Assembly (NCBI GenBank): GCA_038087875.1
Contig: CM075988.1
Span: 20,772,001 to 20,836,000 of the forward strand
Source of the DNA: Malacoraja senta
Lineage: Eukaryota
Reading direction: 5' to 3'
Length of the DNA: 64,000 bases
This document shows positions 26,222 to 27,625 of this stretch, in pieces. Every line of letters starts with the position of its first letter. Positions within the stretch are counted from its first letter, which is position 1. The notes under the pieces are model-generated. The model did not search any database. It was not told the origin of the DNA and was given only the letters and a program-made list of their open reading frames with translations. The translations under genes were made by a program, and so were the position numbers.

Positions 26222-27122
26222 TCTGAAGAATTCTGTGTCTACCTTCGATTTAAACCAGCATCTGCAGTTCTTTCTTACATATAAAGAGTTTGTCATTAGA
26301 CTTTAGAGATACAGCATGGAAACAGGCCCTTTGCGCCACAGAGTCGACACAGATAAGCGATTACCCCATACACTACCACTATCCTGCACACTGGGGACAG
26401 TTTACAGTTTACTGAAGCCAATTAACTTTGGAGAGGACGTAGAGGAGGTTTACCAGAATGCTGCCTGGATTAGAGGATTTCAGCTGCAGGGAGAGGTTGA
26501 ATAGACTGGGAGATAGACACAAAAAGACTGGAGTAACTCAGCGGGTCAGACGGCATTATTGGAGAAAAGGAATGGGTAATTTTTCGAGTTGAGATGTTTT
26601 ATCTTCAATGTTGGAGGTTGAGGGAGACTTGATAGGTTTATAAAGAGGTATTGATAGATTCAGAAACTTTTTCAAAGGATGGAAATATCCAGCACCAGAG
26701 TTTACTGGAGATGTGCGGGGCAAATGTTTTACACAGAGAGTGGTTGGGGCTTGGAGTGCATTGCCAGGGATGGAGTCAGGTACTATAGTGGTGTTTAAGA
26801 GCCTTTTAGATAGGCCCATGGAAATCCAGGGAATAGAGTGATCTATGGATTTTATGGATCATACGATACAATAGAACTTTATTTATCCCAGGAGGAAAAT
26901 CGATCTGCCAACAGTCATAAAAACACAAAATACATGAAACATTAAATTAAAGTGAAGAGTGGAAAGGATTGGGGGTGTGCAAAGATTGGGGTGGGGGGAG
27001 GGGAGGGGAGGGGAGTCAGTCTCAGTCTACCCCACGACAGAAGTGGGAGGAGTTGTACAATTTGACAGGTACAGGCAGGTGAGACCAGTTTAAGTAGGCA
27101 TCATGTTCGGCACAAACATTGT

Positions 27123-27150
27123 CTGAAGAAGGGTCTCGACCCGAAACGTC
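27123..27150 (+). ncRNA. Minimal type I hammerhead ribozyme core (Penelope pLTR-derived)
   Basis: CTGAAGA-a-GGGT(CTCG)ACCC-GAAA-CG-TC: intact CUGANGA and GAAA boxes, 4-bp stem II, palindromic ACGU stem III, GUC cleavage triplet. Confidence 0.75.
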
Positions 27151-27625
27151 ACCCATTCCTTCTCTCCAGAGATGCTGCCTGTCCCGCTGAGTTACTCCAG
27201 CTTTTTGTGTCTATCTTCGGCACAAACATTGTCAGCCGAAGGGCCTGTTCCTACGTGTACAGGTCTATGTAATAATAAACCTATACCTAAAGAATTATAA
27301 AGGCCATGGAAAAGTGCTGCACAGTAGCCCAATGAGTTTGAGGTCTTGCTCTTTAAACACTCATCTCCTCAGAGAGCCAAAGGTTCACTGGAGACAATGC
27401 TGAACCTCATCGCCAATGTATGTATCTAAGTGGTGGTTCTCGAGGCAAGGGAAGTTGTCCATGTTCTGGGGTGTGGTATCTCTGGGCAGTGGAGGCCGGA
27501 GCAGAGATGACGTTGGTGTTAAGTGTGAAGCACATTCTCTCCTACACTTCAGTGTATGTGTCAACCAGGTCTCCGAACTTGCTTGCTTTGTTTGTACCCT
27601 GCACACCTGATAACTGAGGTGGTAG

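What the first reader, a model, noticed from the sequence alone, without database searches (positions are those of the whole stretch)
27121..27215. Highly repeated Penelope-derived inserts carry a minimal hammerhead ribozyme (~20 copies in 64 kb)
Seen: the motif CTGAAGA-A-GGGT-CTCG-ACCC-GAAA-CG-TC recurs across the window. It is intact at 27123(+) and 26194(-), near-intact at 1481(-), 30523(-), 51457(-), 7390(+), 3223(+) and 62929(+), and decayed at ~82, 6550, 10630, 24165, 25565, 28355, 32660, 49515, 52135, 58125, 60210, 61455 and 62700. It has the hammerhead CUGANGA and GAAA boxes, a stem II, an NUH cleavage site and a loopless palindromic stem III (ACGU). The longest copies run directly into a GIY-YIG endonuclease C-terminus (RKLEEQHLIFRLGSL). 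Established: Penelope-like elements carry minimal type I hammerheads in their pLTRs, and a palindromic stem III suggests cleavage as a dimer. Inference: one of this genome's commonest short repeats is a ribozyme-bearing module. Sense copies lie inside ADAMTS8 introns (e.g. 3223, 7390) and could cleave pre-mRNA if active.
Basis: partly seen in the sequence, partly recalled or inferred. Interest (0 to 1): 0.72.

Follow-up and report, generated by a model that had tools for sequence, protein, structure and literature searches.

The report
Hammerhead relics in skate Penelope fragments
This short repeat is the end piece of a Penelope-like jumping gene in a cartilaginous fish and carries a known kind of minimal hammerhead-ribozyme motif, but most copies are broken and even the intact ones are likely unable to cut RNA on their own.

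Summary
The motif is real. The window holds 27 segments of a 100-135 nt repeat; 8 keep all 11 invariant hammerhead core bases. Four copies lie downstream of a GIY-YIG endonuclease C-terminus, but about 100-350 nt away, not directly. Copies show target-site duplications, inverted pairs and a two-step 3' tail, so they are truncated Penelope-like (PLE) insertions. Minimal hammerheads in PLE pLTRs were described in 2014 (PMC4209133).

The pre-mRNA-cutting idea is not supported. Helix I is only 2 bp, the published descriptor finds 0 hits, and a competing hairpin is predicted to dominate. Copy 3223 has lost catalytic G12; 7390 has a stem II mismatch; sense and antisense intronic copies are equally frequent (7 and 7). 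Published minimal hammerheads do not cut as monomers, and one PLE ribozyme needs its protein.

One detail stands out: 10 of 17 copies that reach the ribozyme's 5' box start 2-6 nt before C3, at a site resembling both a splice acceptor and an initiator. The scan noted this family and this clustering before in other genomes (e1-7858714, e1-7788743, e1-7857333). Verdict: new member of a known kind; modest interest.

The parts
27121..27219 (+). Short PLE pLTR insert (about 100 nt): minimal hammerhead plus downstream module; lies between the two genes
   Evidence: ends defined by the target-site duplication
27123..27130 (+). Core box C3-A9 (CUGAAGA) plus the extra A before stem II
   Evidence: extra base is typical of PLE min-HHRs (PMC4209133)
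27131..27142 (+). Stem II (4 bp, G10.1-C11.1) with a 4-nt loop
27143..27150 (+). GAAA box, loopless palindromic helix III (ACGU) and C17; predicted cut between 27150 and 27151
   Evidence: the cut site is inferred from hammerhead numbering
27121..27152 (+). Helix I, only 2 bp (27121-27122 with 27151-27152)
27106..27123 (+). Left copy of an 18-bp target-site duplication (overlaps the insert's first 3 bases)
27216..27233 (+). Right copy of the 18-bp target-site duplication
26174..26278 (-). Copy with full core but no helix I; inverted (fold-back-like) junction centred 1 nt before C3
30417..30940 (-). Long copy: GIY-YIG C-terminal remnant (30768-30940), about 215-nt pyrimidine-rich spacer, hammerhead (C3 at 30550), tail
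51405..51803 (-). Long copy: frameshifted GIY-YIG C-terminal remnant, about 105-nt spacer, hammerhead (C3 at 51484)
1384..1713 (-). Long copy of another subfamily, antisense in an ADAMTS8 intron; full core, U-G pair in stem II, C17 replaced by U
58067..58837 (-). Old decayed long copy reaching the region of the GIY-YIG 'YIG' motif
3191..3351 (+). Sense copy in an ADAMTS8 intron with G12 changed to A; a short inverted piece precedes it
7387..7485 (+). Sense copy in an ADAMTS8 intron; core intact, one stem II mismatch
10556..10751 (.). Inverted pair joined inside stem II, flanked by an 11-bp direct repeat
62632..63039 (.). One insertion made of two divergent pLTR pieces (62723-, 62929+), one with and one without the 3' tail, flanked by a perfect 15-bp duplication
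60109..60239 (-). Short copy starting 6 nt before C3, flanked by a 14-16-bp duplication; core damaged
836..12823 (+). Host gene ADAMTS8 (last five exons)

Best explanation
These repeats are 5'-truncated insertions of the 3' pLTR of a Penelope-like retroelement in a cartilaginous fish (likely a skate), and the motif is the element's minimal type I hammerhead, which is likely inert in the dispersed copies. Shown: the motif, the upstream GIY-YIG remnants, target-site duplications, inverted pairs, two 3' end points, and decay of most cores. Inferred: the PLE protein nicks DNA and starts reverse transcription about 65 or about 100 nt downstream of the ribozyme on uncleaved (or re-ligated) RNA, copies through the ribozyme and usually stops just past it. 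Selection acted on the master elements, not on the copies. Cleavage would need two ribozymes in one tandem transcript and probably the PLE protein, because helix III is only a 4-bp intermolecular palindrome, helix I is 2 bp, and the 5' arm of stem II is predicted to pair instead with the bases after the cut site.
For: PLE origin. Four copies lie downstream of same-strand ORF remnants. These match 81 proteins; 7 of 20 scanned show a weak GIY-YIG hit (1 above the Pfam cut-off) and P0185 joins a weak RT hit to it. Duplications of 11-18 bp flank 4 insertions. 3' loose ends cluster at 30460-30464 and 30428 in the runs laid, about 35 nt apart, like the PLE tail. Ribozyme identity. The motif fits the published consensus, including the extra base, G10.1-C11.1 and the palindrome. 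The Culex entry of Fig. S3 is also loopless with a 2-bp helix I. The core varies less than the flank. The majority letters in all four runs restore perfect stem II at the two changed positions of the 30550 copy. Inertness. 8 of 27 segments have a full core; G12 sits in a CpG and is changed in 7 of 25. Stem II probability is under 0.05 in 7 of 7 folds. The ACGU duplex is only -1.7 kcal/mol. Intronic copies are 7 sense and 7 antisense. A published monomer did not cleave and dimers cleaved poorly. The Anolis PLE hammerhead needs protein, is dispensable for insertion in vitro, and no reads ended at its cut site.
Against: No full-length element was obtained, so the 5' pLTR, tandem layout and clade are inferred from relatives. 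No compensatory covariation beyond shuffles in 16 copies. Rfam finds no hammerhead. Secondary-structure programs ignore tertiary contacts, Mg2+ and proteins, so they under-call hammerheads. The orientation count is small. With this many copies per genome, some will by chance gain a longer helix I: 82+ and 3223+ have 4 possible pairs from their inverted neighbours, though both have damaged cores.
Confidence: 0.85

Rival explanations
1. The short copies come from an RNA that itself begins about 3 nt before C3 (an initiator-like start site), so they are a hammerhead-headed, SINE-like non-autonomous derivative mobilised by the PLE protein, not random truncations.
For: 10 of 17 segments that reach the 5' box start 2-6 nt before C3; the other 7 go on for 60 nt or more (crude binomial p about 1e-8 to 1e-11 on ends that I read by eye). 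Only 2 short inverted pieces start at or next to the cut site. Inverted joints at 30554, 4 nt before C3, occur in all four runs. The upstream bases fit YYANWYY with the A at position 2.3, where 4 of the 10 begin. Bases +28 to +32 match RGWYV at 4 of 5 (spacing recalled).
Against: The same site reads as a splice acceptor after a pyrimidine tract, and in D. virilis the intron ends 5 nt before C3 while transcription starts 46 nt upstream of the intron. One TSD-defined copy starts at -6, before the putative start. Initiator matches are degenerate. ORF-end bins are nearly as deep as hammerhead bins in the DNA runs (7e6 against 1e7), so long copies are also common and the dip over the spacer may reflect divergence. 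RT stalling or fold-back at a short palindrome explains the ends too.
Confidence: 0.25
2. One reading: sense intronic copies are active ribozymes that cut host pre-mRNA such as ADAMTS8.
For: 7390 keeps a full core, palindrome and 2-bp helix I in a sense intron. Copy density is high, so partners in trans are plentiful. The core is better conserved than the flank.
Against: 3 of the 4 sense ADAMTS8 copies have core lesions or lack the CUGA box; C3G abolishes a PLE hammerhead. No sense depletion (7 against 7). CpG decay through G12 fits neutral decay. Active fold disfavoured. Monomer inactivity published.
Confidence: 0.06
3. The motif only resembles a hammerhead and is conserved as a protein-binding, promoter or splice signal of the pLTR; even master elements never cleave.
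For: Helix I is 2 weak pairs; no covariation; the alternative pairing is kept as often as stem II (87.5% against 82.8% of cells); hammerhead mutants did not affect insertion in vitro.
Against: All 11 core bases, the extra base, G10.1-C11.1 and the palindrome match an alignment spanning 40 species; a related PLE hammerhead cleaves with protein and is rescued by C3G/G8C.
Confidence: 0.1

Closest known systems
Minimal hammerheads (min-HHR) in pLTRs of metazoan Penelope-like elements (Cervera and De la Pena 2014, PMC4209133; abstract, results, discussion, part of methods and the whole supplement text read)
   Same: CUGANGA plus one extra base, G10.1-C11.1, GAAA, palindromic 15.2/16.2, NUH, type I topology, position in the pLTR after the endonuclease ORF, mostly dispersed single copies.
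   Different: Helix I is 2 bp with a U-A and a G-C pair, below the descriptor's 3-bp minimum; stem II is only 4 bp; no cartilaginous fish appears in their Fig. S3 or Table S1; copy density looks far higher (27 segments in 64 kb against about 4,000-9,000 motifs per genome in coelacanth and Xenopus, though those are descriptor hits).
PAc (Poseidon) hammerhead of Anolis carolinensis (Frangieh et al. 2024, PMC11167929; main text read)
   Same: Vertebrate PLE hammerhead; RT starts internally at two sites downstream of the ribozyme, giving the tail; inserts read through the cut site.
   Different: Activity was measured there, not here. In PAc the ORF starts in stem II; here no ORF start was identified. 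Relatives of this element carry a Cys-rich linker typical of Neptune/Nematis, not Poseidon.
Drosophila virilis Penelope hammerhead and 5'-UTR intron (PMC4209133; PMC2377424, passages read)
   Same: 2-bp helix I with a splice acceptor at its 5' edge.
   Different: D. virilis has a small looped helix III and two G-C pairs in helix I; splicing is shown there and only suspected here.
Non-LTR retrozymes (bioRxiv 10.64898/2026.07.22.740005; abstract, introduction, part of methods and three passages read)
   Same: Short, non-coding, PLE-derived, type I hammerhead; reported in one chondrichthyan.
   Different: Retrozymes are head-to-tail arrays with a ribozyme in each unit; these copies are single or inverted.

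Membership tests
PLE minimal hammerhead (Cervera 2014 alignment) | CUGANGA box plus one extra base before stem II | tested here: met
PLE minimal hammerhead (Cervera 2014 alignment) | Stem II closed by G10.1-C11.1, then GAAA | tested here: met
   (15 of 16 copies pair at 10.1-11.1)
PLE minimal hammerhead (Cervera 2014 alignment) | Palindromic 15.2/16.2 without loop 3, then UH | tested here: met
PLE minimal hammerhead (Cervera 2014 alignment) | Helix I present (2 bp occurs in the published alignment: Culex, D. virilis, Oikopleura) | tested here: met
   2 bp in 5 of 6 descriptor-like hits; published rows
min-HHR search descriptor (Fig. S7), a narrower set; not filed here | Stem I of 3-7 bp | tested here: not met
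   0 hits in the window
PLE minimal hammerhead (Cervera 2014 alignment) | Compensatory base changes in helices | tested here: inconclusive
   16 copies; 1 two-sided change, 420 of 500 shuffles reach it
PLE minimal hammerhead (Cervera 2014 alignment) | Self-cleavage as a dimer | not testable with these tools
   needs an in vitro assay
EN+ Penelope-like elements | C-terminal GIY-YIG endonuclease upstream of the pLTR | tested here: met
   remnants at 4 copies; the remnant itself has no Pfam hit, relatives have weak GIY-YIG hits in 7 of 20
EN+ Penelope-like elements | RT in the same ORF | tested here: inconclusive
   absent from the truncated window copies; weak RVT_1 hit (E 0.005) in relative P0185; the RT of P0123 matches the window's other LINE and is not counted
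EN+ Penelope-like elements | 5' truncation, adjacent inverted copy, optional 30-40-bp tail | tested here: met
   definition
Neptune/Nematis clade | Zn-finger motif in the RT-EN linker | tested here: inconclusive
   Cys-rich linker in relatives P0128, P0135, P0185; not reached by window copies; no tree built
Non-LTR retrozyme | Head-to-tail tandem units, each with a complete hammerhead | tested here: not met
   copies are single or inverted
Rfam hammerhead families | Match to an Rfam model | tested here: not met
   no hammerhead family among 11 matches at E up to 1

The most novel reading that the evidence does not exclude
One of the commonest short repeats of skates is a hammerhead-headed, SINE-like RNA that starts at an initiator three bases before the ribozyme core, is held in an off fold until the Penelope protein binds, and has been missed by published hammerhead searches because its helix I has only 2 bp.
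Probability: 0.2. Interest if true: 0.55.

Novelty: new member of a known kind. Interest (0 to 1): 0.27.

Why it matters
The class is known, so the main value is as material. This family escapes the published descriptor and may be among the highest-copy hammerhead motifs in vertebrates, so current counts may be low. The sharp 5' boundary at the ribozyme and the two 3' ends record how the Penelope RT starts and stops, a step that is still open. If intronic copies did cut pre-mRNA it would affect many skate genes, but the evidence points against that.

Tried and rejected
No whole genome is held for this window, so the genome-wide consensus and covariation test could not be run. Rfam: no hammerhead; hits were miRNA/snoRNA models on inverted pairs and microsatellites. 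Pfam on the 101-aa ORF remnant: 0 families. Metagenome scan: 1 locus, L001, GC-rich DNA with a stop right after the short match; judged a chance hit and dropped. Motif scans of viral and prokaryotic contigs: 0 and 0. Run search: no RNA holder listed; the runs guessed as RNA are contigs and cannot show expression, strand or cut ends. No intron-like joint among the 15 of 640 joints shown; only 40 of 173 difference rows were shown, so rare core variants could not be read. Spliced-template idea: the 10 short copies share no upstream exon sequence. Lariat-stall idea: the branch-like motif is only 6-7 nt from the AG, too close by recalled vertebrate norms. Lunse et al. (RNA Biol 14:1499) is not held; I saw only its title and citation in a review, and its variants may include this family. 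Searches for PLE hammerheads in skates or sharks found no paper on them. Sequence look-up in earlier findings: nothing. bioRxiv supplements of the retrozyme preprint could not be seen and may list this family for its one chondrichthyan.

Full report
Observation. The motif is at 27123-27150 on + as written. All 21 listed positions carry the repeat. blastn with the 27123 copy gives 31 pieces; I resolved them into 27 module segments of about 100-135 nt and left out 4 short partner pieces from the counts. A descriptor without helix I finds 6 hits against 0.08 per shuffled window. Rfam has no model that matches.

Host and context. The last ADAMTS exon matches ADAMTS8-like proteins of cartilaginous fishes best among named hits, and five exons map on + between 836 and 12820. 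A BTB and C2H2 zinc-finger gene follows on +; calling it ZBTB44 rests on recalled synteny. A GC-rich island at 28.5-30 kb probably marks its start. The 27123 and 26221 copies lie between the two genes. The only hit of the ORF remnant among longer proteins was the C-terminus of a gene model from the skate Rhinoraja longicauda, so the host is likely a skate.

PLE origin. Four copies have a same-strand ORF remnant upstream (1683, 30845, 51670, 58524, all on -). Of 20 scanned, 7 have a weak GIY-YIG hit, and P0185 joins a weak RT hit, a Cys-rich linker and GIY-YIG. Such a linker marks Neptune and Nematis PLEs (bioRxiv 10.1101/2021.04.23.441226, passages); no tree was built. Four insertions have duplications of 11-18 bp, two of them around inverted pairs. 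3' ends fall about 65 and about 100 nt past the cut site in those copies, and loose ends in public contigs cluster about 35 nt apart. Inverted partners and an optional 30-40-bp tail are PLE hallmarks. About 297,000 and 314,000 contigs of two runs and 30,000 and 5,000 of two others lay on the 30400-30960 stretch; this shows great abundance but is no copy number.

Ribozyme anatomy. The motif fits the published PLE consensus: CUGANGA, one extra base, G10.1-C11.1, GAAA, palindrome, UH (PMC4209133). Helix I is the weak point. Only 2 pairs form, kept by G-U variants in 6 of 32 cells. The published descriptor needs 3 and finds nothing here. Two-pair helices do occur in the published alignment, including a loopless Culex motif, so I file it in the family but not among descriptor hits. 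The core varies less than the flank: 10 of 210 against 188 of 1471 non-CpG cells. Local alignment trims decayed 5' boxes, so I repeated the test on inner core bases only: 2 of 103 against 63 of 537. Copies are related, so this reflects selection on master elements. No covariation beyond shuffles was seen in 16 of the 27 segments, chosen for covering the whole motif.

Activity. 8 of 27 segments have all 11 core bases, and 2 of 27 also have full stem II, palindrome and helix I. G12 lies in a CpG and is changed in 7 of 25. In 7 of 7 copies folded, stem II has probability under 0.05; in 27123, 26221 and 3223 its 5' arm pairs with the bases after the cut site. That pairing is kept in 87.5% of cells against 82.8% for stem II, neither beyond shuffles. 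The 27100-27230 RNA folds no better than shuffles (z -1.45). These programs under-call hammerheads, so this is soft evidence. Published work agrees: a min-HHR monomer did not cleave and dimers cleaved poorly. The Anolis PLE hammerhead cleaved only with protein, was not needed for insertion, and left no read ends at its site (PMC11167929). In ADAMTS8 the sense copies are 82 (C3G), 3223 (G12A), 7390 (stem II mismatch) and 10621 (no CUGA box). Within the two genes there are 7 sense and 7 antisense segments, so there is no sign of selection against sense copies, on small numbers.

Mechanism. Most likely the PLE protein nicks the target, primes internally downstream of the ribozyme, and copies through an uncut or re-ligated site; the copies span the cut site without a break (shown). 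In master elements the ribozyme would cut only when two copies pair through ACGU in a tandem transcript, probably helped by the protein (inferred from the literature). Dispersed copies then decay (shown by CpG loss and deletions).

What is left unexplained. 10 of 17 segments that reach the 5' box start 2-6 nt before C3, and inverted joints at 4 nt before C3 recur in all four runs. I saw this pattern before consulting earlier notes; e1-7858714 reports the same in another genome. The site follows a pyrimidine tract and an AG like a splice acceptor, as in D. virilis, where the intron ends 5 nt before C3. It also fits the initiator consensus (PMC1475891, one passage). An RNA start, RT stalling and cDNA fold-back at a short palindrome remain open. 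Against a dominant short RNA, ORF-end bins are nearly as deep as hammerhead bins.

Novelty. The class is published. I found no paper on it in cartilaginous fishes beyond a retrozyme count in one species, and could not read Lunse et al.. The scan has reported this family three times in other genomes. Verdict: real, a new member of a known kind, interest 0.27.

Noticed in passing
window 18904-21963 (+): Nearly full LINE with an apurinic-type endonuclease and RT in three long frames; CR1/L2-like by recall; fragments of it also lie near 15 kb, 44.5 kb and 49.3 kb.
   Followed up: partly
window 36785-40962 (-): Broken tyrosine-recombinase retroelement (RT pieces, integrase SAM-like and catalytic domains, and a weak PCIF1-like hit that may be a methyltransferase), DIRS-like by recall, inside the ZBTB gene.
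   Followed up: partly
P0001, residues 442-499: A Rhinoraja neuromedin-U receptor 1 gene model ends in the PLE endonuclease C-terminus: exonisation or an annotation artefact.
   Followed up: no
window 10556-10755 and 28160-28385: Two independent PLE inserts sit next to the same short sequence, which looks like part of another repeat; a possible target preference.
   Followed up: no
window 30765, 1620, 58500 (-): The ORF stop codon overlaps a GT donor-like motif in 3 of 4 long copies even though the last residue differs (K, R, T); it may be the donor of a pLTR intron.
   Followed up: partly
window 3191-3219 and 52083-52134 (-): Two short inverted partners begin at or next to the predicted cut site, the only ends that could reflect cleaved RNA.
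   Followed up: partly
window 27201-27211 region and 63506-63628: The module downstream of the ribozyme holds a small conserved hairpin near 27185-27200; the palindromic insert at 63.5 kb causes spurious miRNA matches.
   Followed up: no
window 29.8-30.3 kb: Purine-skewed tandem repeat just downstream of the GC-rich island.
   Followed up: no
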